A DNA stretch of 55,305 bases, filler included, from Diploschistes diacapsis (lineage: Eukaryota), in NCBI GenBank assembly GCA_023645945.1. It is 5 parts of 5 records of this genome, joined end to end, with 100 filler letters (N's around TTAATTAATTAA, not from the genome) between each part and the next. Parts side by side here need not be neighbours in the genome. Positions count along the whole stretch, not along the records: positions 22,185 to 33,163 come from JALAIB010000867.1; 4 more parts are not named here. One strand, written 5' to 3'. A model generated the notes under the pieces. That model saw nothing but the letters and a program-made list of their open reading frames with translations, did no database searches and was not told the origin of the DNA. Position numbers and translations under genes: made by a program. Numbering within the stretch: position 1 is the stretch's first letter; every line of letters begins with the position of its first letter. This document shows, piece after piece, positions 7,473-44,341 of this stretch.

Positions 7473-8898
7473 TGCTTACTTTTTCATCAATAGTTTTTAC
7501 CACTCCCTCTATCTTTGCCTTTTTACTTCTCCCCAAACTCGAGATAATTTTTTGTCACACAAAACTGTCCAATCTCTATACTCTACAGAGTCAGTGTACA
7601 GAGTTGGAGTCGGTAGTCAACATTTGGCGGTCGAAACGCTGGCTTTGGAGGTAGCTAGAGTTTCTCACAATCGGTAGTTAAGGGAACCGGAACTCGGTAC
7701 CTTCGACTTGGGATTCGGGATTCTGGATACAGATCTTGGGGGCACTTAGAGCATAACACTGAGCGTCGTTCACAGTAAAAATATACACTGAAAATATCTG
7801 TCGACACATGTAGGACACGAGGGAGTTGGCTTAAGGACGCTCGTAAAGGCTGATTACTCTTCAATGTATACGAAGATAATGGTGCATTTGTAAATGGACT
7901 GCCTCTACATTTCGAGATGCTGGTAGTGGTGCCTCATGATTATCTTGTAGAGACATCTCACCTTTGTGCTTGCTGCTACCAAGCGAAGGAAGAGTTTCCC
8001 ACTACCGCGAGGATAGGAAGAATTTGGAGCGGCTAGCTTTGGTCGGAAACGTGGTGTTGAGTTCTGGAGCTTGCGGGCTGGTGCCACCGCCTTGAAACAA
8101 AGTTGGAAAACCCCCAATAGAAGAGCTCGAAAGCAGGCTTAAGCCAAAAGCCTTTCCTGGATCGATGAAAACGGCGTATTACTTCATAGCCGCTTTGTAT
8201 AGCCAGTCAATTACGTATACGAGGGTAAATCTTCGATTCTAGAGATTCGGGTTTATAGTAGTACCCAAACGAAAGTCGCAGGAGTCGTTACCCAAACTGG
8301 CAGCACGCAAGCCAAAGAGCACACGGAATGAGAGATATGCGCGACGGTGGTGCACAGGCGACTCACACTTCTGTGCTTAGCTGTGAAAATCTGAAGTGTT
8401 GGAGTTTTGATGGATTGAGAAACACAGTTCGATTAAGAATTACAAACAAGGGTGCAGGCTGATGGCTTCGAACAGAAGATTTAGCAGGAAAGCGTAGAAT
8501 GATGATACACTACTTATTGTGATGCAAGGCAGCAAAGCACATATTGTAACAACAATAGTTATAGCAGCTTACACAAATGGAAGAACAAGCGCTGTGGACT
8601 GTGACCTATACTTCGTGAAAAGAATCAGCTAATGCCTGATTGCCAGGAGGTTCTGCTCACATCCAAAAAGCTGGAGATATCAAACATGAAGTTGTTGTGT
8701 GAAATATAGTGCTTCCGGAAAAACCACTTTGCCGGCCAACTCCAACAACAAGGTAGGACCCTGGACTAGCTGAACGTTGTCTGCTTTGCCGTCACGGCCC
8801 GCACAGAGTTTAGTTTACGCAGCCTGTGCCTCGCCTTCTTCACAGTGGTTGTTCAAGCATTGTTTCCCCTATATCTCCCAGGCCATCTACGTTCAGTG

Positions 8899-10998: not shown

Positions 10999-11098
10999 NN
11001 NNNNNNNNNNNNNNNNNNNNNNNNNNNNNNNNNNNNNNNNNNTTAATTAATTAANNNNNNNNNNNNNNNNNNNNNNNNNNNNNNNNNNNNNNNNNNNN
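10999..11098. other. Artificial contig spacer (N44-TTAATTAATTAA-N44)
   Basis: Exactly 100 bp with a six-frame stop linker; identical at four positions. Confidence 0.98.
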
Positions 11099-11572: not shown

Positions 11573-14500
11573 TTACGTCTCCCCAAAGTCCCAATGCTCC
11601 CTCATCTCCTCCCACCCCTCAACCTCCCCGCGCCTACACTTCTTCGCTACAGCCCTCATCCTCAACTTCCCCTCCCAAATCTCCCAATTGTAGGCCCCCT
11701 CCACCACCCCTAAGCACCGCGTGCACATGCTCTCCTCCAGGTTCGCATCCGTGGGCACGTTGTACTTCCAGCACCGCATGCACTTGTCCGCAGCCGGCGC
11801 GTAGACGTCTATAGCCGTCCTGCGAAGCTGGCCGTCGGGCGAGGTGTAGCTGTGGGCAGCAGAGTACTTCCAGGGCGCGTCTTCGAGGGCGAGAGGGGGA
11901 TTGGGAAGGATGTTCGAGGCTGCGCATGGGGCAGGGGCGGTTGTGTCTGGTTTGGAGTCGGTCGGAGTATGGGTATAAAGTTCCACGCGCGACACGACGA
12001 GGATGTCTTCGAGGTCGCGAACACGACGGAGAAGAACTTCTCGGAACGGGTCGATGGCCCCTGGGGCCGTGGGGGCGTCAGGGAGGCGGATGGCGACGAA
12101 GCATTGCAAGGAAGAACCCAGTTGCTTTTTCTTGCGGCCGATTTCTTGGGTTGTGTTGACGGTGTCACTGAGGGCGGAGAGGTAGGGCATGTCTGCTTCG
12201 AGGACTGGGTCTAGCCAAGGGCCGGTTATGGCGCGGTATTGCTCTATAACGTTGGACCCATGCATCGTTTTGACGGGGTGAAAACCTCGATGTTGTGCGG
12301 GCAGGTGGTCGAGAGCTTCTTCTATAAGGAGGGGTGTGATGGGGTAGAGGAGATGCAAGAGGTTCTTGAAGATTTCCCAGACGACGAGCTGAGCGTTGAT
12401 GCGGGAAGGGGACTTTGCAGCGGAAGCGTATAGACGGTCTTTGACGGTTTGGAAGTAAAAGGATGAGAAGTCTGTGTTTATATAGGAAAGAATGGCCGCT
12501 GCGGCACGGTGATACTCGAATTTTGAGTAGGCGTCATGGACGGCTGAGGAAAGATTTCGGAGGCGGATCAGAGCCATTTGATCTGTAGCGCGTAGAGAAT
12601 CGAAGGACGCTCTTTGCTGCGGTTGATGCGTATCTAACAGACCGAGTAGAAGCTTGAACGTCACGCGAAGCTTGGTCATGTTTATATTGACGGATTTAGC
12701 GACCAGCTTGCCAACTTGGATATCATGGGAACAATCGCTACTTGCGACCCATAGGCGAAGAGCATCCGGCCCAAAGCCTCTATGCGTCAATTTCTTGTCT
12801 CTCAGGTTCCTGACAGGAGGTGCCAGTTTGCCCTCGATGATGTCGTTGGGCGAAACCACATTACCCTCAGACTTGCTCATTTTTTTACCCTTGCTATCGA
12901 GGGTGAAGCCATGGGTGACGAGCGTCTTGAATGGGGCAACTGGGGCCGGCACACGAGACCCTATCTGACTCGCAATTTTTGTGAGAAGAGATGATTGAAA
13001 CCACCCACGGTGTTGGTCTGTTCCCTCGAGATAAACATCTGCGGTAGGGGAAGCTTGTCCACCAAGCTCTGAGCCGATTTCTTGCCAGCTTGTGCCACTA
13101 TCAAACCAAACATCCATCGTCTCCTTTCCACGTAGAAAAACGCCATCATCTCTTAGGGCCGGCAATACCCAAGACTGGTCGGTCTCGTCATCCACCCACC
13201 AAGCCCCAGTGCCCCTCTCCATCATGACCGAAATGATGTGTGATATGCTCTCGGCCGTCATGATGGCTTCGCCAGTGTCTTTATCATATAGGGCAGGGAT
13301 GGGTACGCCCCATGCTCTTTGCCGGGAGATACACCATTCGGATCGCCCGCGCACAAAGCTCGAAAGCCGGTCGTGTCCGCCATCTGGAACGAATCTTACG
13401 CTATGAAGACTCTGCAGGGCACTCTCGCGGATATCACTAAGATCAGCGAACCACTGCCTTGTAGACCGTATAATGACTGGCGTTTTTGAACGCCAGTCAT
13501 AAGGATATTTGTGCTTGTACGCCTGCTCGTTTATCAAGTAGCCTCGGCCGCGAAGCAGTTCTAGAACAGCATGGCTTCCTGGATCGAGGACACTAAGTCC
13601 GCCAAGGAGCTGTGGCTCATCTGGCAATACTTCTGTAGTAAACCGACCTTGGTCATCCACTGGAGCAAAGGGCTCGATACCGTATTCTTGACAGAGCTTG
13701 TAGTCGTCCATACCGTGGCCCGGTGCCACATGCACAAGTCCAGTCCCAGAGTCAGCACTCACGAAGTCTGCATGGAAGACAGGTTGTGGCGGCGCCTGCT
13801 TTGAGAGCAACGGATGGCGATATTCCGTCCCAACCAGTTCGGATCCGAGGCAAGTTCCCAGCACGCGGTCTCCGAGGTCTTCGTTCACTATTTTCCCAAA
13901 TTCGCTCAATCTTGTCTTTGCGACTAATAGAGTACCATGCATTGGGGAGCGAACCACGACGTATTCGAGCTGCTTATGGACGGCGATCGCCTTGTTCGCC
14001 GGTATAGTCCAGGGCGTTGTCGTCCATATGACTGCATTGACAGCATCTTCGGTGTGTTCTAACTGCTTTTTGAGTCTCTTAGGAAGAGTCACCATGGGAA
14101 ATTTCACGAAAGCCGCAACTGACGTATGGTCAGCATTGTACTCGAGCTCCGCTTCGGCCAGCGCGGTCATGGTAGACGGCGACCAATATACTGGCTTCAG
14201 CCGTCTGTAAATCTGTCCATTCTTCACCATGTCCTTGAAAATCTCCAGCTGCCGCAGCTCGTACTCTTTATCCATCGTCGTCCACGCTCTGCTCCAGTCC
14301 GCCATAATCGCCCATTTCCGAAAGTCATGCTTTTGATCTTCGATTGCATCTCGAGCTAGCTTCCGCGCATGCGCTCTTACTTGCAGCGGTTTCGATGGTG
14401 TGGTAGACGGTCGCGACTGGAGGGCCTTGAGTTCGATGGGGAGACCATGGCAGTCCCAACCCGGGCGAAAGTGAACTCGCCGACCTTTCAGTACCTGGTA

Positions 14501-22084: not shown

Positions 22085-22184
22085 NNNNNNNNNNNNNNNN
22101 NNNNNNNNNNNNNNNNNNNNNNNNNNNNTTAATTAATTAANNNNNNNNNNNNNNNNNNNNNNNNNNNNNNNNNNNNNNNNNNNN
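22085..22184. other. Artificial contig spacer
   Basis: N44-TTAATTAATTAA-N44. Confidence 0.98.
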
Positions 22185-22330
22185 GCCTAGTATATACGTT
22201 TGCGTCGTAATATATTTCATATATAAAACGCATATAAATTATTATAAGAACTAAATATGAGCTAAACGGTTTAATAACCTATATTATATGCGCTGAAAGA
22301 GCGGCGCAATACCTGTTTCGGAGTCAAACT
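22185..22330. repeat. AT/TpA-rich contig-end segment (RIP-like repeat remnant)
   Basis: tagtatatacg..tatatttcatatataaaacgcatataaattattataag is strongly AT- and TA-rich compared with the flanking DNA. Confidence 0.4.
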
Positions 22331-22824
22331 GTGATAAATGGTTATTCTACTATACTAAAACACCCGCTTACCGGCTTCCCTTTTGCCTTGGGCGTCTCTC
22401 CTGGAATCTTTCACTCACCAAACAATAGGCCCGGACTATGTCCACGACACTGCTGCATTTCACCTTGTAGTAGCATCATGCACGACCCAGTTCTACCTAG
22501 CCCCTTCATAATGTGATTGGCTTATGAACAGACCTTCATGCAAGAATTCGGAGAGCAATACAGCGTGATCAGCTCCATTCCAATGAGGCCGAAAGTGCAC
22601 TTTGAGATTGAAAACAATTGGGGTTTATCGCTTTTCTCACATTTTTACGTTTATTTCATTATATTGGAAACACTTGGGCCCCGGCTATCCCACTTCCTCG
22701 GTGTTTTCTTCTTCAGGAAAGGGGAGACTGACTAGCATTGTTGAATCGCGTTATTCCTCTTGAGCTTTGACTGAACTGTCTTACGAGCTGTCCATCCAAG
22801 CAAAGCTTATAACTTTCTTCAACT

Positions 22825-23798
22825 ATGGCACCTGTAGAGCTTCCTTGTCAGATCCACGTTAAGAAGGTCGAAGACAGCGACGGCGACAGTGGACAGACAC
22901 AGGAAGCGACGATCCTCTCTGTTGGAGACTGCCCTGATATAGGAATCGAGATACGCACACGCTGGGCGGCTGAGCTGATGAAGTGCTTTGCGCAAACTCG
23001 GGAACCTCGCACTTCTATCCGACCATGGGATTTTGTTGCCAGATTAAATGGATCTATCGAGTCTCTACCGATGCCGGTATCAGAAGATAAACTCTGCAAG
23101 GGCTATCCCGCTCGCTTCCAGATACCGCCAAGCACCTTACATGGGTTTGATCACGAGGAAAAGGTCAGAAGAATGGAAATGTTCGCAATGGCTAGTCTGC
23201 TCTACGAGATCATGTCCGGGAGGAAGCCGTTTGAGGGATTGACCGACAAGGAGGTGCAGCATCACTTCATCAATGGTGATTTCCCCGATGACGCCGCTGC
23301 TTTGCCCAACTCAGCATTTATCCTGTCGGGTTGGAGTGAGGAGTTCTCGCAGGAGCTAGCAAGACAAGGTTTGCCAGATTGGAGACGTCTTTCAGAAGCT
23401 TCTGACGATTCATAGTGAAAACACAAGATGTCAGCCTTTTCCAAGCCACGAGTGAATATGTCAGAGCCCATCCAGTGCGAGCTGGTCTGCAAATATTGGG
23501 CCTTACTGTCTCTACTCTATCCTTCCTGGCAGTGCCGGTACTTGGAGCTGTCGGATTCACTGCTGTAGGACCAGCTGCCGGCTCTGCTGCTGCAGCTTGG
23601 CAAGCGTCGATTGGGGCAGTCCAGGCTGGTAGCCTTTTTGCTTGGTGTCAGAGTGCGGCGATGGGCGGAGCGGCTGTGAGTAGTATACAAGCTGCTGGTA
23701 TCGCTGGTACGGCACTTGCAAGAGTGGCCGATGTTCCAGGGTTGGTAGAAACATTTAAGAGATGTTTCCGTACCCCGAACCGAGGACTGCAACTTTGA
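22825..23798 (+). CDS. Degenerate protein-kinase C-lobe fused to an IFI6/IFI27 (ISG12)-like membrane domain; exons 22825-23368, 23416-23798 (308 aa)
   Basis: Exon 1 has EMFAMASLLYEIMSGRKPFEG..F..GDFP (kinase subdomain IX-X-like) but no GxGxxG, HRD or DFG. Intron GTTTGC..CTGAC..TAG keeps the frame. Exon 2 has LGAVGFTAVGPAAGSAAAAWQASIGAVQAGSLFAWCQSAAMGG. Confidence 0.75.
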
Positions 23799-24206
23799 GA
23801 TAGTTAATGCAACGTCACAAGAGCCTGAAGAGATGCAAAAAAGATGTCTTTCATCCACCGTATCTCAAAGAGACCTCCTCTAGAGACCCGAGTGCCGAAC
23901 TGCGGTACATAGCTAGTCATTATGTAAAGGCTTCTGTCGTTGGGCTAGGCTTAGCGAGTGAGTTGAAGGTTTTTCTGTTACCCTGGGTCATATTAGGCTC
24001 TAGCCTGGGCGTCCACGTGACCCAAGTTTGGTAGAGTTTATTATCTCCACAGATAAATTCGGGTGAAGCATAGGCACTGACCCTAATGCCACGTCACCTT
24101 GGTACTAGCTACGCTAGGGTACTAGCACCCACGTTAAATAACTCCAACAACATCGTCAATTTCCCTGACTTTAACGCCGTGCCTTTCAATCCCGTAACCT
24201 GCGGCC

Positions 24207-24824
24207 ATGGAGCACCATAACATTCTATCAAACAACGGTACAAGGGAGAGGTTGCTAGCAGTATTGGCCCTGGTAATCGAGACTTCACTGGTAAGCCAAA
24301 AAAGATGAACGCTCTTACTTTACTTCACGGCCGTGGAATCTCAGACTGAGAATGCTTCGTATTTAGGGAGATTTATTCGAACTCTGCTTCAGTATTATCT
24401 TGCCATTCTGGATAATGCCAAGTTATCTCACATCCTTGACCGTCTTGGCGACTTCACCGCTTTTGTTGCCAGCTACGTGCGCAAGCATCCGTGGGAAACG
24501 GCATTCGCTCTCCTTAGCATTCTCAGCCTAACGATGGTTCCTGTCATACTACCCGCAATAGGCTTTTCTGTCATAGGACCGGTCGCTCAAAGCATAGCGG
24601 CTGCGTGACAATCCTCGATCGGAATCGTGGCTGCCGGAACTCCGTTTGCTTTCTTGCAAAGTGCCGCTATGGGTGGATCAGCCGCGGGTTTGTTTTATGG
24701 TGCTGGTGCTGCAGGACTGGCTGTATTGGCGGGTAAGAAAGCTGCTGACTGGGCGTTCAGATGGTGGCGTAGGGAAGAGCGACAAGGTGAGGGAGGCCCA
24801 GGCAATGAATCTGGCTTGATATGA
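24207..24824 (+). pseudogene. Second IFI6/IFI27-like gene with one in-frame TGA (24606-24608); predicted exons 24207-24290, 24345-24824
   Basis: LPAIGFSVIGPVAQSIAAA*QSSIGIVAAGTPFAFLQSAAMGG aligns to the upstream paralogue, with the stop in place of W. The frame is otherwise intact. Confidence 0.75.
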
Positions 24825-25149
24825 AGAGCAACGCCGGGTTAGAGGGATGAATAATGGTAAGAAATCAAAATTTAATGCTGGCAGTAAGGCTCCCATTTTA
24901 CCTGTTGCGAAGCCGCGGCCAGGGCCTACCAAGCCGGTACTAGAACAAAAAACTAGTGAGCATTTAGCCGCTGTGCCCGAAACGAGGCTACCAATCAATT
25001 TGCCGCTCATCTTGGATTGCTTATCTTGATGTGACCGCCCCCGCATTGTCTTTATTGCCTAAGATGTCCCACAGCTTCATCACCTCCTTTCCGGTCTCCC
25101 CACCTTCTCCCATCCTCCATTAATCACAACTTCGTTGTGAACCTTCGAT

Positions 25150-27685
25150 ATGGTGTCCAAACCGTTCTATACAGATGCCCTAAAGGGGCTGTGTTCTAAG
25201 GATCAACTGGACCTATTGGACTCGGTCGACTATCTCCGTTCGCAAGGCATCAGTCATTATGTCTCGTTGCCACAGATCATCGTGTGCGGCGACCAGTCAT
25301 CCGGAAAGAGCTCTGTACTGGAAGCAATTTCTGGTGTATCGTTTCCGACTAAAAGCAACTTGTGCACCCGATTTCCGACAGAATTGGTCCTCCGCAAGAC
25401 ATCACACGTCGGTGTCAGCGTTTCAATCGTCCCGCATCATTCTCGCAGCGAGTCCGAGCAGCTCTCCCTTGGTAGCTTTCACGAAAACCTAAATGGCTTC
25501 GATGGGCTTCCAACTCTGATTGAGAATGCAAAAGCAGCCATGGGGATCTCCACACATGGCAAAGCTTTCTCGAAAGACCTCCTTCGTATTGAGGTCTCAG
25601 GTCCCGATCGGCCTCACTTGACTATTGTGGACCTTCCTGGACTGATCCATTCGGAAACAAAACAGCAGTCTGCCTCCGATGTCGATCTTGTACAAGACGT
25701 CGTTCAAACCTACATGAAAGAGCCAAGAAGCATCATTCTCGCCGTGGTTTCGGCGAAGAATGACTATGCGAACCAGGTCGTGTTGAAGCTCGCCCGCGTT
25801 GCGGACAAAAAAGGTAATCGGACGCTGGGCGTCATCACAAAGCCTGATACTTTGATTCCGGGTTCTGAGAGTGAAGCCATGTATGTCTCCCTTGCGAGAA
25901 ACCAGGACGTAGAGTTCCGTCTTGGATGGCATGTGTTGAAGAACATGGACTCTGAAACAGGAGAGTGGTCTTTGGTGGATCGCGACGTCAAGGAAGAGGA
26001 ATTTTTCTTGCAAGGGATATGGGAAGAACTCCCTCGATCGCTCTTAGGTGTCGATAAGTTACGAAGTCGGCTCAGCAAGGTCCTCCTTGGACAAATCGCC
26101 GCCGAACTACCCAGCTTGATTGACGAAATTGAAATCAAATCCAATGCTTGCCGCAGCCGATTGGATAAGCTTGGGGAGCCTCGAGCTACCTTGGACGAAC
26201 AGCGGCGCTATCTACTCTATATTAGTCAATCGTTCCAGTCCCTGGTCAAAGCCTCTGTGGATGGCACCTATAATGATCCGTTTTTTGATAACGCAGAGTC
26301 CGAAACTGGGTACCAAAAGCGTATCCGCGCCGTGATTCAGAATCTCAACCTGGATTTCGCAGAGCACATGGCTAGACGAGGTCACCGTCGCGAGATAACC
26401 AATTCGAAGGATACGACTCGCGTCTCTATCGGTGTTGTTCCTATTACTAGAGACGAATTCCTTGACCATATACAGCGATTGATGCGGAGAACGAGGGGTC
26501 GAGAGTTGCCCGGGACATTTAATCCGATGATAGTGGCAGATTTATTCCTGGAGCAATCAATTCCATGGGAAGCGATAACCCGGAGCCACATTGACAGGGT
26601 TTGGAAGGCTGCCAAAGATTTCCTCAGTCTTGCAGCCACTTACATCGCCGACGCCGCAACCTCTAAAGCACTATTCCAGAAGATCTTCGAGCCTGCTTTG
26701 AATCAGCTATTGGAAAGCTTGAACGTCAAGACCACTGACCTGCTAACGCCGCATCAGAAAAGTCATCCAATCACTTACAACCATTACTTCACCGAAACTC
26801 TCCAGAAGGTCCGTAATGAACGAAGCAAGAATGAATACTCCAGAGTCGTAAAGAATTTCTTTGGAGTCTCTAGCCTTGAATCAAGCGTCTATATGAACCA
26901 GCATCAAGACCTTAATCAGCTCGTGACAGCTCTTGTGCAAAGCACAGAACCGGACATGAACCGCTTCGCATGTTCTGAAGCTTTAGATTGTACGGAGGCG
27001 TATTACAAGGTCATATCTTCTTATATTTTATCCTTCCCCTACTTTCAACAACCTCGGCTGACCCTTTTGTGTACCCTTACAGGTTGCTTTGAAACGTTTC
27101 ATTGACGACATCGCTATCGAAGTCATTGAAGCCAAGCTTTTATCTCCGCTCGGCGATGTCTTCTCACCTGTAGCTGTGTCCGCCATGCCTGCTGACCTTG
27201 TAACCCGCATCGCTGGTGAATCTGAGGAGAATCGTGCCCAGCGTGAACAGTTGACCAAGCAGCTGGACGTCCTTACAAAAGGCTCTGATACCTGCAAGCG
27301 GTTCATGGGCGTCAGACTTCTCGGTAAGAAGGCACTCGGCGTGCCCCTCTCTCAGCTATTGCTAATGTATTGGATAGATTCGGATGATGGCACGATTCAA
27401 CTGGACCTCAAATCCAGCTCTGCAAACAACAATTCTAGCATCTTCGATATGGCGTCTGATGACTCGTCCCAGGAAGACGTCAGATCGTTGTCGGACAGAT
27501 CTGTCAGCTGTAGAGTCTCACCCATTGGCGTATGGGAGTTTGGGAGCACAGAGGCAAAAGATAGCAGCGTCACTCCAGAAGCCGATATCGTAGAGACACC
27601 ACCGGAAGAGTTTTTTTCTTCTTCTAAGAAGAAATCTAAGAAGTCGAAAGTTTCGGCGAAAAAGGCTATCTTTGAAGAAGCCTGA
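25150..27685 (+). CDS. Mx-like dynamin-related GTPase; exons 25150-27009, 27083-27323, 27378-27685
   Basis: LPQIIVCGDQSSGKSSVLEAISG (G1), CTRFPTE (G2), DLPGLI (G3), TKPD (G4), RGRELPG stalk, AYYK|VALKRFID GED, then an acidic and Lys-rich tail. Confidence 0.92.
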
Positions 27686-28689
27686 GCGGCTGCAACGCCT
27701 AGTTGGCGGCATAGTGTCGATCTACTCATACTCTAGAGATTCTATACTGGTGGTTGGAGTATTTGGCCTTACTAATTGATCGAGGGGGAATGCATCATGC
27801 CGAAATATTTGAGGAAATTGAAGAGTGGTGTCTGAATGGATGGGATATAAAGGGAAACACGAAGATACATGGTCCGCTAGCTCAACTGCTTCGCTTCTAT
27901 TACTACTCTTACTTCTTCATTTTACGTATCATGTCTTCCGAGGCCTCAAGGAGGGAGCAGCCTGCTTTGAAAACTGACGCCTTCTGCTGTGTCTCCCGTG
28001 CACCACATCGATGTTACATGTCCCTATCCAGCAACTGTTGCATCCTCCCCATCTTTACCCTACAGTCACAATTAGCTCTGAGCAGAGAAGTTCCGTCTTT
28101 TCAGCCTTGATAGTCTAGAAGGTTCTCAATTCATGTCTACCTGGCTCACGGAAGCTGCTATGTACGATCTACTTCAATAACGGTAAGAAGTGGGCTTCAG
28201 GTCAGGCATAGAAAGGTAGACACAAAAAAAAAGTAGCGCTCTTTTGACATGGAGCAGTATCTTCTACTAAGGTAAAGGGGAGAGGATTGGATTTATCTTC
28301 TCCTCATACGCGGGGGCCTTGTACCATCTACCACGGCCGTTACTGATGCGATCCTAATAGCCTTGCATATTGGTGATATGCCTCGGACAGATACGGCTTT
28401 TCCTTAGCGCGATTCTTGCACTACTGACCGAAGACCGTATTATTATTCGTTACTGTCCTCGAAGAAGCAGCACGCTGTGGTCTGTTGTCACCACGCAGGT
28501 CGTGATCGCTTAGCCCTGGGTTCGCCTTATCAGGGGGCAGGTTTCCTCCTGGGCCCCGACGAGAGTGTATCTTATCACGCTTACGCGCTTTCCCCTTAAA
28601 ACCTATAAGTCGACAAGGTTGCTTTCGATGTTACGCCTCACGATCCGTGAAAGACCTCAAGCCGCATCCTCCCCGTCAGGGGTTTCCAA

Positions 28690-30000
28690 GCCTACAGTGC
28701 ATCCACGATGGAAATGGCGAAGAAGTTGAAAACCAGACTACCGCCGCAGACAACACTATGATACGTCCCAAGCATCATCAGCGCTCAGGGTTGGTACCTG
28801 GCAGACGATGGCCCAATGAAGGGCGTAGAAGACGTTGGAAATAAGCGATTGGTACACATACCAGCGCGGTCGGGTTGCGAGGAATATTATAGCAAGTTGC
28901 GTAGAAAAATAGCACCATTTTGGAATATGAGCATGATGCCCGGATGTAGAAGGAGATGGCGCCTTACCAATGGATAGCCCGCCACATATGCGCCATGATA
29001 CCTGCAACTGTAGCAGAGCCACTGAGATACGACGCAAGCAGGCGACCGCCAGAGATTGCCAGAAAGATGCGAGGAGAAACTTCGACAATGAAGGCGATCA
29101 TTAACGACGTCAACGCAGGCTACACGACCCCTATCACGTGCGGACGTGCCATCTTTTGATTTGGACTCTCGACTCCCATTTCACGCCTCCAGCATGATCA
29201 ATGAAGGCAAGCGAAGCAGCTTTCCAGGGCCTGGACGGGGACCATGAAGGCCCCAACGAATCGTGTTAAGACAGCCCAAGCAGTGGCGTAATCGGAGCCC
29301 ATGGATATAACGACATGCACAAGCCAAAGATTGAGTGCGTTCCTTATGGTAGACTCAAGGAACGTTATGATGCCTGGTCGCAGACGCATCGTGGATCCAC
29401 GTAGACTTGAGATTGTCGCGCCTTTCAGCGCAGCAGCGGAGCTTTGGGATCGGGGTAGTTGTCACGTACACGAAATAGATCATTCCAGCAAAGGTTGAAG
29501 ACATGGAATTCTGAAATGACGAGTAGGTCCAGTAAGATATTGATCGCAAATTTGACAGAGCTAACTTCTCTATAGCAGAGCTGAGACAAAGGAAAGAGCT
29601 CAGGCGTACTTACGTCAAACTGGCACTTCGGCGTTCCAGCAGGCACGAATCCCTTGTTCATCATGCGACACGCATCTCTGCCGTGAGACACAGATCCCGT
29701 TTCATCCCCGATATGGGGCTGTGGCCTCTGCCATGTTCTCGTCTTTTGGGAGCATCGCATAGCGGAAATGAAGTTTGAAAAGCATGCCTCCTCACATAAT
29801 TCTAAGAAGCTTTAGTTATGTCAATACCTCTCATCCGGGCACTATCAGACCAATCTGCTATCTGCACCTCTGCACGACTTCTATGCACGCAATTGTCCAT
29901 TGGCAATCATCAACTTAGCTCAGTACTCTACATCTTATGTTCGGGATAAGATGCGATGAAGTAAGCGTTCCCATCGCCGACGGCATAAATGGACTCATCA
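28690..30000 (-). pseudogene. Degraded fungal MATE-like multipass membrane protein
   Basis: Fragments [96 protein letters not shown] and WAIVCQV are spread across frames with stops. Ends are approximate. Confidence 0.7.
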
Positions 30001-30819
30001 CTACCTTCGTTACGCCAAGTAATTCTGGTCTGACCTGCTTCAGCAAGACAAGATGGCGATGGCAAACATAGACCGAGTTCTCGTACTCCAAGCACCAGCT
30101 GCCTGGACCCAAAATACTTACTTCCTTACCACTATCTAGAACCATATCGGCCGCTCCGCTATCTCTCCTTTCTATTTCACCTTACCGGCCGACCAACGTA
30201 GGCCAGGGTTGACTTCACCGCAATACGCAATGAGCGGCACATCAAGGATTTTCGTATTCGAACCCATTGTGAAGACCACCCAGTACTGTTTGGATCTAAT
30301 ACGGACCGTCGATCTAAATTGGCCATGTGCTTCTTGAGATAGAGAATCTCTCTCCATAGGCTGGCCTTACTACCTTGTGGGCACGCTACTTGAGAATTGC
30401 ACGGTTGGGGATACCACGAAATAATTGCGTTTTGGGACGTCTCTATGTCGTTTTCTACACCCTCCCTTTAAACGACACACGAAAGTAAGCCTACATGCAA
30501 TAGGTTGCTTCCGAGCATGAGAATCGTTCCATATTTATCTCAACCAGTTGGTTAACGAATCCGAAAAGTCTCTAATGTCGAATCCATCATGATGACTGGC
30601 GTAAAAAGTCACCGCATTTGATTGGATCTGCCGGGCTTGATTTCTGATAAAAAGCGCTCACACCATCTTTATTGATGAGGCAAGTCAATCAGCATTCTAC
30701 CGACTAGCTGTCACCCCCACTTTGTAGACACAATGGTATCTTACCCTCAGTAGGGCGCTATTCTATTATTCTATAATATCCGCGCCATTCGATGTATTCA
30801 ACCTAAAGCTACTTTCCAA

Positions 30820-32103
30820 ATGGATGCTTACCCTCCACAGGTCAACAAAAAGCTTTGGAATCGATTCTATGAGCCTTTGATACTCTTGCTGGCTTATGGA
30901 AAATCACAGGGGAAGCATGTCAAATCCGACGAGGCATCATCTGAAACGTGTATTGATGGCAGCAACAAGACGCTGAACAAGAACTTGCTTGACGAGCTTG
31001 CATATATATGCGATTATTCGCCTAGTGGAGATACCGTGTCTGCAATTGCGATACAGGATGGCCCAGGTTTGATCTATTGGGTGGCCGCAAATACCAGCCA
31101 AGGACCTAAAGTCAAGCCTTTTCTCTCCGGCATCTTACAGCTACTTGGCCAAGTTTATAACGCAAGCGATGAGCAGCTTTCTACGTTGAAACATCAAATT
31201 TCTGACCGCGCAATAGTGTTCTCGGCCCAGAAATTGCGGCGTTATAGGTTCATGCTGAAACGTACGATCAAAACATGCATCCCAAGACTATTGGAAGGAC
31301 AAAGTGAAGTAGGTCGTATTGACATGCCAAAACTCGAGGGTTTCTCTATGAGTCACTGATTCATTGATCAAACACTAATGTCTATTACAGAAGCAAACGC
31401 TCTGAAGGACTGGCTTGTTTCATTGTCTGACTCGGATTTGGATCTCCGTTGCTTTTGCCGACTATGCTACGGAGCTAAAGGCTCGGTGCTTTTGAAAGCA
31501 GTCGAACAGAGGGCCAAAATTAGTAGCATACACGAAGACGACACTTCGTATGAAGCCGGGTTTGGCCGTATTCGACATTTTATCGGTCGTATAGGGTCGC
31601 ACCTGAAAGCCGCACGGGTTTTGGTGGAATTTGGGAGGCACTACCCTCAACTATTTACGGGCTGGTCGATTGAGATTGCCACACAACACCTGGGCTTCAC
31701 ATCACCGTCATATAGGGGGAAGTCTTCGATCAACGGCATAGTCAACCGAATGGTCACAGATCCCCAGGCCTGCCAATATTATCAAAATGAGCTCCAATCC
31801 CAGGACGTGAAATTTCATCTTTGATTAGAAAAACGCATTCGAGATGAGTACCAAAACCCAAAATTTAAGCTGAGGGTTCACGCAGAGATTATCCTTTTAG
31901 ATCTGTTTCACCGGCAAAACTTCCGGGTTTGGGATAGGATTCGGTATATCGGTGTTAGTAAACCATCGTGTTTCTTATGTTATCGGTACTTTCAGGCCCA
32001 TCCATTACAGGTTCAAACATCGGGCTGTAGTAATAACCAGGGACATTTTGGACTTCGATGTCACCTCATGATCGGACAGACATTATACCGAAGCCGAGAA
32101 TAA
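30820..32103 (+). pseudogene. OTT_1508-like nucleic-acid deaminase with an in-frame TGA at 31822-31824; intron about 31304/31313-31390
   Basis: N-terminal RFYEPLILL..LDELAYICD..GDTVSAIAIQD..YWVAAN, middle IRHFIGRIGSH. After the stop and in the same frame: RVHAEIILL (31873-) and YIGVSKPSCFLC (31945-31980), the Zn-deaminase HxE and PCxxC-type motifs. Confidence 0.82.
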
Positions 32104-32349
32104 GGCGGATCAATCCTGGCATCATCCCATCAACCACCATCGACTCTATAATTACGATGGTATCAAACCTGGCAGTCTCAACATATAAGCTGATCCTACA
32201 CATAATCAACAGTAAGCTGCAAGATGGCCAAGGACTCACTAATGACCTACTAATGACCAAGACAGCCAATATCGCATCCGATCCCGAGTCTGCTGTGGCC
32301 ATTAACTCTTTCTTCACCACGAAAGTCATCATCCTATAATCCTCAATCG

Positions 32350-32980
32350 AGCAGGTTATATGCCGAACGCCCGTAAGAACCTGATGTACGAGAGCTTAAA
32401 TGCTCCTTATAATGCGTCTGATCACCGAGCCATGGCTAATCGCACGATATATACTCGAGCATGCTCCGCAAGCAGTATTGGGCCATCCGTCTCCGCTAAG
32501 GCGCCGAAAGGGGATCCGTTATCTTTACGCGGCACTCCTTGAAAATTTCCGAAATTATAATCGTATCGTCGATATTTTAAAAGGTGCTTTTCATAAGCAT
32601 TATAAGGATGGCGAGTCGTGAGTAGAAATTTAGATCGCTTTTATAAAAGTCCTACCGATTCTAAATAAAATTACTACCCGAATCCATTCCGCAAAAGAGT
32701 TGATAAAAAAATGCGAACTCCCGGAACCCGATAAATTCTTTCACGAAATCGTTTTTAAATGGGCTATACCCGAGAAATATGTGCTACATGAGGTCTCCTT
32801 ATAGACCTTAATGGAACGTGAGCTTCAAAAGCATTACTTTTTATAACCGTCCACTACGGAAGTACGACGCTATACCGCGAAAGAACTCCAACCCTGGGTT
32901 TCTTGGCACGAAAGTTGGAGCTAGAGCCCCTCTGAACTGGGTCTCTCACCAGCTTTTTCATGCACTCCGGATCATCCCAC
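32350..32980 (+). pseudogene. Stop-riddled (RIP-like) remnant of a fungal hypothetical-protein gene
   Basis: Long protein-like frame EI*IAFIKV..RIHSAKELIKKCELPEPDKFFHEIVFKWAIPEKYVLHEVSL*TLMER..YFL*PSTTEVRRYTAKEL. The stops are mostly TAG/TAA and AT content is elevated. Confidence 0.5.
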
Positions 32981-33163
32981 TACTTTAGGTCAGTATCAAT
33001 GAAGTCAGGCAGCGGAAGCAGCAAGTCCTAACGAAGATGTTTCAAGGTACTAACCATTCACGCAGCTCTGCCTGCGGAGATTAAACGAGTTCGGCGACTC
33101 GCTCACAATGTCGGCTCCATATCAACCTTCCATTCTCCCTCCCCAACCACCACCTCAACCCCC

Positions 33164-33263
33164 NNNNNNNNNNNNNNNNNNNNNNNNNNNNNNNNNNNNN
33201 NNNNNNNTTAATTAATTAANNNNNNNNNNNNNNNNNNNNNNNNNNNNNNNNNNNNNNNNNNNN
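33164..33263. other. Artificial contig spacer
   Basis: N44-TTAATTAATTAA-N44. Confidence 0.98.
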
Positions 33264-44241: not shown

Positions 44242-44341
44242 NNNNNNNNNNNNNNNNNNNNNNNNNNNNNNNNNNNNNNNNNNNNTTAATTAATTAANNN
44301 NNNNNNNNNNNNNNNNNNNNNNNNNNNNNNNNNNNNNNNNN
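44242..44341. other. Artificial contig spacer
   Basis: N44-TTAATTAATTAA-N44. Confidence 0.98.

What the first reader, a model, noticed from the sequence alone, without database searches (positions are those of the whole stretch)
22825..32103. Candidate fungal 'ISG-like' defence/cell-death island: two IFI27-like genes, an Mx-like dynamin and a toxin-type deaminase
Seen in the sequence: one contig with AT-rich or degraded ends and no housekeeping gene carries, all on the + strand, a pseudokinase-IFI27 fusion, a second IFI27-like gene, an Mx-like dynamin only about 325 bp further on, and an OTT_1508-like deaminase. Established knowledge: in animals IFI6/IFI27 (ISG12) proteins and Mx GTPases are interferon-induced antiviral or apoptotic effectors. 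OTT_1508 deaminases belong to the toxin-deaminase superfamily. Fungal accessory regions and Starship elements often carry such conflict genes. Inference: the tight IFI27-Mx linkage may be a recurring functional module for mycovirus defence or non-self cell death, which I do not know to be described.
Basis: partly seen in the sequence, partly recalled or inferred. Interest (0 to 1): 0.78.

Follow-up and report, generated by a model that had tools for sequence, protein, structure and literature searches.

The report
Decaying fungal antiviral gene cluster
A lichen-associated fungus carries relatives of animal interferon-induced antiviral genes side by side, but half of the cluster is broken in this strain, and related fungi place changing sets of defence genes beside the same Mx-like gene, so this looks like a turnover hotspot for antiviral genes rather than a fixed two-gene machine.

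Summary
The four genes are real: two Ifi-6-16 (IFI27) domains, an Mx-like dynamin and an OTT_1508 deaminase on one 11-kb contig of a lichen-metagenome fungus. Only two are intact: the kinase-remnant/IFI27 fusion (308 aa) and the Mx-like gene (802 aa). The second IFI27 gene has a stop at an invariant Trp plus frameshifts, and the deaminase has a stop and has lost its 3' end. The proposed fixed IFI27-Mx module is not supported: an IFI27 gene lies near the Mx relative in 1 of 54 independent loci, in another arrangement. What recurs is broader. Ten of 54 loci carry a defence-type neighbour: OTT_1508 or SsdA deaminases (5), HET, CHAT, Dicer, viperin, zf-3CxxC. The parts are known: MxF (PMC11789081); virus-induced 6-16 genes and OLD deaminases in Neurospora (PMC7648066, PMC12754623). 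Best reading: a decaying piece of a mix-and-match antiviral hotspot around an MxF gene. No matched null and no RNA were available, so shared accessory-region residence remains a serious rival.

The parts
22185..33163 (.). The contig that holds the finding (10,979 bp), bounded by assembly linkers
   Evidence: N44-linker-N44 spacers at 22085-22184 and 33164-33263; one 10,708-nt record of run X1 (possible source) covers 22248-32935 without differences
22185..22330 (.). Multi-copy repeat at the left end
   Evidence: Doubled depth and many loose ends in X1, X2, X3
22825..23798 (+). Gene A, intact, 308 aa: kinase C-lobe remnant fused to an Ifi-6-16 (IFI27/ISG12) domain; exons 22825-23368 and 23416-23798
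   Evidence: Open spliced frame; PF06140 E 1.5e-11; 97 longer homologues with PF06140; kinase fold matches
24207..24824 (+). Gene B, IFI27-like pseudogene in this strain (single-exon ~198-aa ORF in relatives): frameshifted N-terminal stretch with a stop, small deletions, TGA at 24606-24608, frameshift near 24772
   Evidence: PF06140 E 1.4e-8 read with X; alignment to P0219; X2, X3 and X4 read G at 24608; X2 differs by indels at 24242, 24262, 24398, 24772
24984..24999 (+). Conserved CCAAT-containing element about 165 nt before the Mx-like ATG; candidate promoter site of the Mx-like gene itself
   Evidence: Found with up to 4 mismatches upstream of 13 related loci, all in or near the window's clade; no second copy in the window at up to 3 mismatches
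25150..27685 (+). Mx-like dynamin (MxF-type), intact, 802 aa; exons 25150-27009, 27083-27323, 27378-27685; acidic low-complexity tail
   Evidence: Open spliced frame with G1, G3 and G4 motifs; Pfam; best solved relatives human MxA/MxB E 1e-34, then Drp1 1e-29, Vps1 1e-25
30455..30571 (-). Relic of a second, decayed Mx-like gene (stalk fragment, inverted)
   Evidence: tblastn E 5e-6 and profile E 1.3e-6
30820..32037 (+). OTT_1508-like (OLD-type) deaminase pseudogene: intron ending near 31390, TGA at 31822-31824, intact HAE...CxxC motif after it, 3' part lost
   Evidence: PF14441 E 3.5e-15; the stop is not at a conserved Trp; homologues run 81-262 aa beyond CxxC in nearly all cases; X2 and X3 have loose ends at 32036-32038 and X2 has no cover of 32067-32432
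32038..33163 (.). Unrelated DNA that replaced the deaminase 3' end, with a repeat near the right end
   Evidence: No Pfam hit in six frames; 32963-33120 is 91% identical to L034:7431-7587

Best explanation
The contig is a decaying piece of a mix-and-match antiviral/conflict hotspot centred on an MxF gene. The Mx-like gene with its own promoter element is the stable part; defence genes of several families are gained and lost beside it independently. Shown: the domains, which genes are intact, and the changing neighbours. Inferred from relatives: each gene acts on its own under a shared dsRNA/virus-induced programme. MxF would be a GTP-driven oligomer acting on viral replication complexes or membranes. 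The IFI27 domain would be a membrane-inserting growth-arrest or cell-death effector, with the catalytically dead kinase C-lobe as a regulatory lid or decoy. The OLD-type deaminase would edit RNA. In this strain only gene A and MxF can still work.
For: All three families have a published link to fungal antiviral response or Mx orthology. 10 of 54 independent Mx-like loci have a defence-type neighbour within the fetched flank: OTT_1508 deaminase in L001/2, L013, L003/6, L079; SsdA-type deaminase in L034; kinase-like/IFI27 in L042-44; Dicer and zf-3CxxC in L014; viperin (NF038283, 252.9 bits over cut-off 180) and zf-3CxxC in L074; HET in L006 and L035; CHAT in L068. In the 5-row clade that holds the window's gene (SH-aLRT 99, quick tree), 4 of 5 have a deaminase nearby, of three different kinds (window vs L001 28% identical; SsdA another family), so this is repeated recruitment and not one inherited block. 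Three independent OLD neighbours in 0.485 Mb give P 0.009 or less if genomes hold 3-30 copies per 35 Mb (the density is my assumption). All 5 independent deaminase/IFI27 events lie within 4 kb, which is 55% of the flank (P about 0.05). Turnover is visible: two broken genes and an Mx relic here, and stop-riddled Mx copies in L015, L036, L046/48/49.
Against: No matched null: the background is an assumed uniform density, and accessory regions concentrate such families anyway. 44 of 54 loci show no defence-type neighbour, although many have short flanks (35 of 54 have 4 kb or more on one side), and several sit among transporter and metabolic genes (L008, L023, L067, L080). No MxF has a tested function. 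The labels HET, CHAT, zf-3CxxC and SsdA were counted as defence-type after seeing them. The upstream element is not shared with the neighbouring genes in the window, so co-regulation has no sequence support. The IFI27 domain is modelled with pLDDT under 50.
Confidence: 0.55

Rival explanations
1. Shared residence only: these fast-evolving families pile up in accessory or mobile regions (for example Starship cargo), and their closeness says nothing about an antiviral programme.
For: Repeat at the contig end and rearrangement; a DUF3435 recombinase gene lies about 3.4 kb from the Mx-like gene in L001 (that this family is the Starship captain is recalled); the Mx clade is 82-85% identical across named fungi of four other classes, as mobile cargo could be; many copies are decayed; neighbours differ at every locus.
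Against: The neighbours include specifically antiviral families (viperin, Dicer, OLD, 6-16) and cluster within 4 kb; no captain or transposase on this contig.
Confidence: 0.27
2. One reading: the two proteins work as a pair and travel together.
For: Single contigs bridge gene B and the Mx-like gene in X2 (about 97% alike) and X4 (largely 80-90% alike); a second, differently arranged IFI27 fusion lies 2.5 kb from an Mx relative in L042-44.
Against: 0 of 38 loci with the tandem arrangement, 1 of 54 with any IFI27 gene; P 0.04-0.34 under assumed densities; 0 of 5 genomes with adjacent tags; no shared contig length between 143 Mx records and 173 IFI27 records (weak test); no PF06140-dynamin fusion among 97 longer homologues; gene B is lost here while Mx stays intact.
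Confidence: 0.1
3. A non-self recognition (heterokaryon incompatibility-like) cell-death locus with strain-specific alleles.
For: HET and CHAT genes near Mx relatives in L006, L035, L068; strain-private loss of two genes.
Against: No HET or NLR gene on this contig; the differences between strains are loss-of-function lesions, not divergent allele classes.
Confidence: 0.05
4. An OLD-type editing switch: the deaminase corrects the premature stop of gene B by A-to-I editing, as OLD does for zao in Neurospora.
For: The stop of gene B sits at an invariant Trp, and OLD enzymes correct Trp-position stops in neighbouring genes.
Against: The stop is UGA with G before the A, while OLD corrects UAG and favours U at -1; three other runs have the Trp codon in DNA; gene B also has frameshifts; the deaminase itself is broken twice; no C2H2 zao-like gene on the contig.
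Confidence: 0.03

Closest known systems
Fungal MxF proteins (Langley et al. 2025, PMC11789081; section 6 and passages read)
   Same: Dynamin GTPase closer to human MxA/MxB than to Drp1 or Vps1; variable copy number and turnover
   Different: The passages read do not discuss genomic neighbours of MxF; placement in MxF1 or MxF2 was not tested here
Neurospora dsRNA/virus-induced gene programme, including 6-16 family gene NCU04490 (Honda et al. 2020, PMC7648066, passages and supplement hits; Choudhary et al. 2007 not held, its listing of Mx homologues is recalled)
   Same: Same gene families (6-16/IFI27; a 3'-5' exonuclease also turns up beside Mx relatives in L034 and L079)
   Different: There the link is co-induction; here it is physical clustering, with no expression data
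OLD-ZAO system of Neurospora crassa (commentary PMC12754623, parts 1-2 of 3 read; the primary paper not seen)
   Same: OTT_1508-like deaminase with HxE...CxxC in an antiviral-looking neighbourhood
   Different: No zao-like zinc-finger gene, no editable UAG target, enzyme broken in this strain; orthology with OLD-1/2 not tested
Animal ISG12/IFI6/IFI27 family (PF06140; IFI27L1, PDB 2LOQ)
   Same: Gly/Ala-rich hydrophobic motif passes the Pfam cut-off and aligns to IFI27L1 (E 0.017 and 0.071)
   Different: Gene A carries an N-terminal kinase C-lobe remnant; this fusion is a widespread fungal family, with a tandem double form in Trapelia
Prokaryotic defence islands (recalled)
   Same: Unrelated defence genes in changing combinations at a high-turnover site
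   Different: Eukaryotic, separately promoted genes; enrichment not yet shown against a matched null

Membership tests
Ifi-6-16 / ISG12 family | PF06140 score above the curated cut-off | tested here: met
   44.4 and 34.9 bits against 29.1
Ifi-6-16 / ISG12 family | Sequence or structure match to a solved member (IFI27L1) | tested here: inconclusive
   2LOQ at E 0.017 and 0.071; the domain is modelled at pLDDT under 50
Ifi-6-16 / ISG12 family | Induction by infection; membrane location and cell-death activity | not testable with these tools
   No RNA holder listed
Active protein kinase | N-lobe Gly loop and Lys, catalytic HRD Asp, DFG | tested here: not met
   Family profile aligns only from the catalytic loop on; the HRD Asp and DFG positions are replaced; Pkinase 12.7 bits against 31.7
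Kinase-fold remnant (pseudokinase) | Kinase C-lobe fold | tested here: met
   Homologue P0003 modelled at pLDDT mostly 87-98 over residues 1-180; all listed Foldseek matches are kinases, best E 5e-4, TM about 0.3
MxF | Dynamin GTPase and middle domain with intact G1, G3, G4 motifs | tested here: met
MxF | Closer to Mx than to Vps1, Dnm1/Drp1, Mgm1 | tested here: met
   Ranking of solved structures: MxA/MxB 1e-34, Drp1 1e-29, Vps1 1e-25, Mgm1 1e-22; a ranking, not a tree
MxF | Placement in clade MxF1 or MxF2 with reference sequences | not tested
   The tree holds no reference proteins
OLD (OTT_1508-like deaminase) | PF14441 with HxE...CxxC and GxxK before CxxC | tested here: met
   motif definitions
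OLD (OTT_1508-like deaminase) | Intact reading frame | tested here: not met
   Stop at 31822-31824 and loss of the 3' part after 32037
OLD-ZAO system | Adjacent C2H2 zinc-finger gene with an editable UAG | tested here: not met
   No C2H2 motif in six frames of the contig; DNA beyond the breakpoint at 32038 is foreign, so a lost neighbour cannot be excluded
Starship element | DUF3435 captain and element boundaries | tested here: inconclusive
   None on the 11-kb contig; no genome held; a DUF3435 gene lies near the Mx relative in L001
Fixed IFI27-Mx module (proposed) | Conserved adjacency beyond close relatives | tested here: not met
   0 of 38 tandem, 1 of 54 nearby; 0 of 5 adjacent locus tags

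The most novel reading that the evidence does not exclude
Filamentous fungi have antiviral defence islands anchored on MxF genes, where homologues of interferon-stimulated genes (IFI27, viperin, zf-3CxxC), Dicer and RNA-editing deaminases are exchanged like cassettes. Unknown genes beside MxF, such as the kinase-remnant/IFI27 fusion, could then be mined by guilt-by-association as new fungal antiviral or cell-death effectors.
Probability: 0.35. Interest if true: 0.8.

Novelty: new variant of a known kind. Interest (0 to 1): 0.5.

Why it matters
Each family here is already tied to fungal or animal antiviral defence, but MxF has no tested function and little is known of fungal antiviral effectors beyond RNAi. 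If MxF neighbourhoods are truly enriched for defence genes, the neighbourhood method that uncovered bacterial anti-phage systems becomes usable in fungi, and the widespread pseudokinase-IFI27 fusion is a first candidate. If not, this is an ordinary decaying accessory locus.

Tried and rejected
No whole genome is held, and the records behind the loci could not be searched for a within-contig background. No RNA holder listed, so splicing, induction and editing are untested. Scans of prokaryote genomes and viral contigs for the fusion family and the Mx-like gene found no relative. Editable-stop idea for Mx relatives: single TAG-at-Trp stops occur in L025 and L045 at different positions, the rest look like RIP-type decay; rejected. 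Editable stop in the deaminase: not a Trp position; rejected. Shared promoter element among the clustered genes: not found. No Pfam family in 27700-30750 or 32038-33163; no convincing repeats; no strong RIP signal by index or by the balanced changes against X2. No solved relative of the deaminase family. Whether the deaminase stop is private to this strain could not be read: 1367 rows were not shown. The careful tree did not finish; one search is the quick tree. Paper searches found no description of IFI27-Mx or MxF-neighbourhood clustering or of the kinase-IFI27 fusion; the library lacks most subscription papers, Choudhary 2007 and a 2012 review were not held, Honda 2025 was not seen, PMC10051545 was seen as a listing only, PMC5640708 and PMC10512228 gave nothing relevant, and one supplement file of PMC7648066 could not be read. 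No complex prediction was run, since no binding is claimed.
Full report
Setting. The 55-kb window is five unlinked contigs joined by linkers; the finding lies on the third, 22185-33163. No genome is held. The best holder of the DNA is a lichen metagenome run that may be the source, and the closest named relatives of gene A and of the dynamin are lichen-forming ascomycetes. The other four contigs carry ordinary genes such as a tRNA synthetase, a kinesin and a mitochondrial carrier, and none has an IFI27, kinase-remnant or OTT_1508 match.

The genes. Pfam confirms two Ifi-6-16 domains, Dynamin_N with Dynamin_M, and OTT_1508_deam, all above their cut-offs. Gene A (22825-23798) splices across a 47-nt intron to an open 308-aa frame, as full-length homologues do. 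The search for longer relatives of its second exon gave 97 clusters with PF06140 among the 8000 candidates scored, most about 300 aa long, from lichen fungi, Leotiomycetes, Geoglossomycetes and one basidiomycete; none carries a dynamin domain. The N-terminal part is a kinase C-lobe remnant. The family profile aligns to kinases only from the catalytic loop on, without the HRD Asp or DFG. A model of homologue P0003 is confident over that part and matches kinases only. The Atlas holds the fusion as an unnamed cluster of 107. The dynamin (25150-27685) gives an open 802-aa model with intact GTPase motifs, and its best solved relatives are human MxA and MxB, ahead of Drp1 and Vps1.

Two genes are broken. 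Gene B has TGA at 24606-24608, at a Trp invariant in 28 of 28 aligned homologues. Runs X2, X3 and X4 all read G at 24608, and X2 differs by indels at 24242, 24262, 24398 and 24772. Against the single-exon 198-aa homologue P0219 the window's N-terminal part is frameshifted and holds a further stop. The deaminase has TGA at 31822-31824, at a variable non-Trp position, before an intact HAE...CxxC motif. It stops matching its homologues at 32037, where X2 and X3 continue with other letters. A relic of a second Mx-like gene lies inverted at 30455-30571.

Close relatives keep the order. One X2 contig and one X4 contig each bridge gene B and the Mx-like gene, and an X4 joint links the flank of gene A to that of gene B. 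No shown record bridges to the deaminase in X4. So the tight pair is older than this strain, but this is inheritance, not recurrence.

Test of the proposed module. One metagenome scan with the dynamin kept the best 80 of 118 confirmed loci, which fall into 54 clusters at 95% DNA identity besides the window. Profiles for the IFI27 domain, the kinase remnant and the deaminase were run over all 80 loci in six frames. IFI27 occurs in 1 of 54 clusters (L042-44): a divergent kinase-like fusion 2.5 kb upstream on the other strand, 44% and 52% identical to genes A and B over the domain. None of the 38 clusters with at least 1 kb upstream has the tandem arrangement. In 5 of 5 named genomes with both gene types listed the locus tags are far apart (only the best 120 of 5199 dynamin hits were listed). 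Contig lengths of 143 Mx records and 173 IFI27 records share no value (a weak test). The fixed module is not supported.

What recurs instead. Pfam was run on 278 of 312 ORFs of 130 aa or more picked from one locus per cluster, plus 4 added ORFs. Defence-type neighbours appear in 10 of 54 clusters: OTT_1508 deaminases in four (L001/2 and L013 share one orthologue, 83% identical; L003/6; L079), an SsdA-type deaminase in L034, the IFI27 fusion in L042-44, Dicer with zf-3CxxC in L014, viperin with zf-3CxxC in L074, HET in L006 and L035, CHAT in L068. In the quick tree the window's gene sits in a supported 5-row clade, of which 4 have a deaminase nearby, of three kinds. Three independent OTT_1508 neighbours in 0.485 Mb are unlikely under an assumed uniform density of 3-30 copies per 35 Mb (P 0.009 or less), while one IFI27 neighbour is not (P 0.04-0.34). 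The five independent deaminase or IFI27 events all lie within 4 kb (P about 0.05). Against this: the densities are assumed, a uniform null ignores accessory compartments, several labels were counted after the fact, and 44 of 54 clusters show no such neighbour. A CCAAT-containing element about 165 nt before the Mx-like start is conserved in 13 related loci whose further upstream DNA differs, and has no second copy in the window. The Mx-like gene thus looks like a self-contained unit with changing neighbours.

What is known. Langley et al. name fungal Mx orthologues MxF, uncharacterised and variable in number (PMC11789081; section 6 and passages). Honda et al. 2020 report that the 6-16-family gene NCU04490 and a 3'-5' exonuclease, first found as dsRNA-induced, are induced by viruses in Neurospora (PMC7648066; passages and supplement hits). 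That the 2007 dsRNA study also listed Mx homologues is recalled; the paper was not held. OTT_1508-like deaminases (OLD) are virus-induced A-to-I editors of premature UAG stops in neighbouring zao genes and favour U at -1 (commentary PMC12754623, parts 1-2 of 3; passages of PMC13327615). Iyer et al. define the clade and its fungal expansion (PMC3239186, passages). The OLD model suggested that gene B's stop might be an editing switch, but the codon, its context, the frameshifts, the relatives and the broken enzyme all argue against it. Ten library searches found no account of clustering around MxF or of the kinase-IFI27 fusion; the library is incomplete. Earlier notes of this scan, unchecked, reached like conclusions for an NLR beside an MxF gene and for other IFI27 loci.

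Verdict. The IFI27-Mx pair is not a recurring module on present data. The best reading (0.55) is a decaying piece of a mix-and-match antiviral hotspot around an MxF gene, in which each product acts separately; the steps from domain to antiviral action are inferred from relatives, not shown. Shared residence in accessory DNA is the main rival (0.27). Novelty: new variant of a known kind. Interest 0.5, rising to 0.8 if enrichment holds against a matched null.

Noticed in passing
window 10999-11098, 22085-22184, 33164-33263, 44242-44341: The window is five unlinked contigs joined by artificial linkers; nothing across them is synteny.
   Followed up: yes
L074:744-1718 and 8090-8590: A viperin gene and a zf-3CxxC gene lie 8.3 kb and 1.4 kb upstream of a distant Mx-like gene. 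That zf-3CxxC is the RTP4 domain is recalled.
   Followed up: partly
L014:1-3425 and 13255-13827: A Dicer gene upstream and a zf-3CxxC gene downstream of an Mx-like gene.
   Followed up: partly
L034:8295-9974: An SsdA-type deaminase domain gene abuts a 5'-truncated Mx-like gene, next to a weak 3'-5' exonuclease match; L079 also pairs a deaminase with a 3'-5' exonuclease.
   Followed up: partly
L001:3440-7504: DUF3435 recombinase gene converging on an intact OTT_1508 deaminase, 1.2 kb from an Mx-like gene, with ankyrin repeats beyond.
   Followed up: partly
L007:7038-8381: Multi-C2H2 zinc-finger gene divergent from an Mx-like gene; any relation to zao was not tested.
   Followed up: no
protein P0015 (Trapelia coarctata, 772 aa): Tandem double form of the kinase-remnant/IFI27 fusion.
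   Followed up: partly
one search hits: The Mx-like clade is 82-85% identical in named Pezizomycetes, Leotiomycetes, Lichinomycetes and Geoglossomycetes; strong constraint or horizontal transfer, not tested.
   Followed up: no
The closest named full-length relatives of the deaminase are from Orbilia (44-56% over the query), a distant class; patchy distribution.
   Followed up: no
L015, L036, L046, L048, L049: Mx-like copies with many Gln-to-stop and Trp-to-stop changes, as RIP would give.
   Followed up: partly
run X4, window 24015-26210: Several contigs and higher summed depth over gene B and the Mx-like gene than over gene A or the deaminase; only one shown record bridges the two.
   Followed up: no
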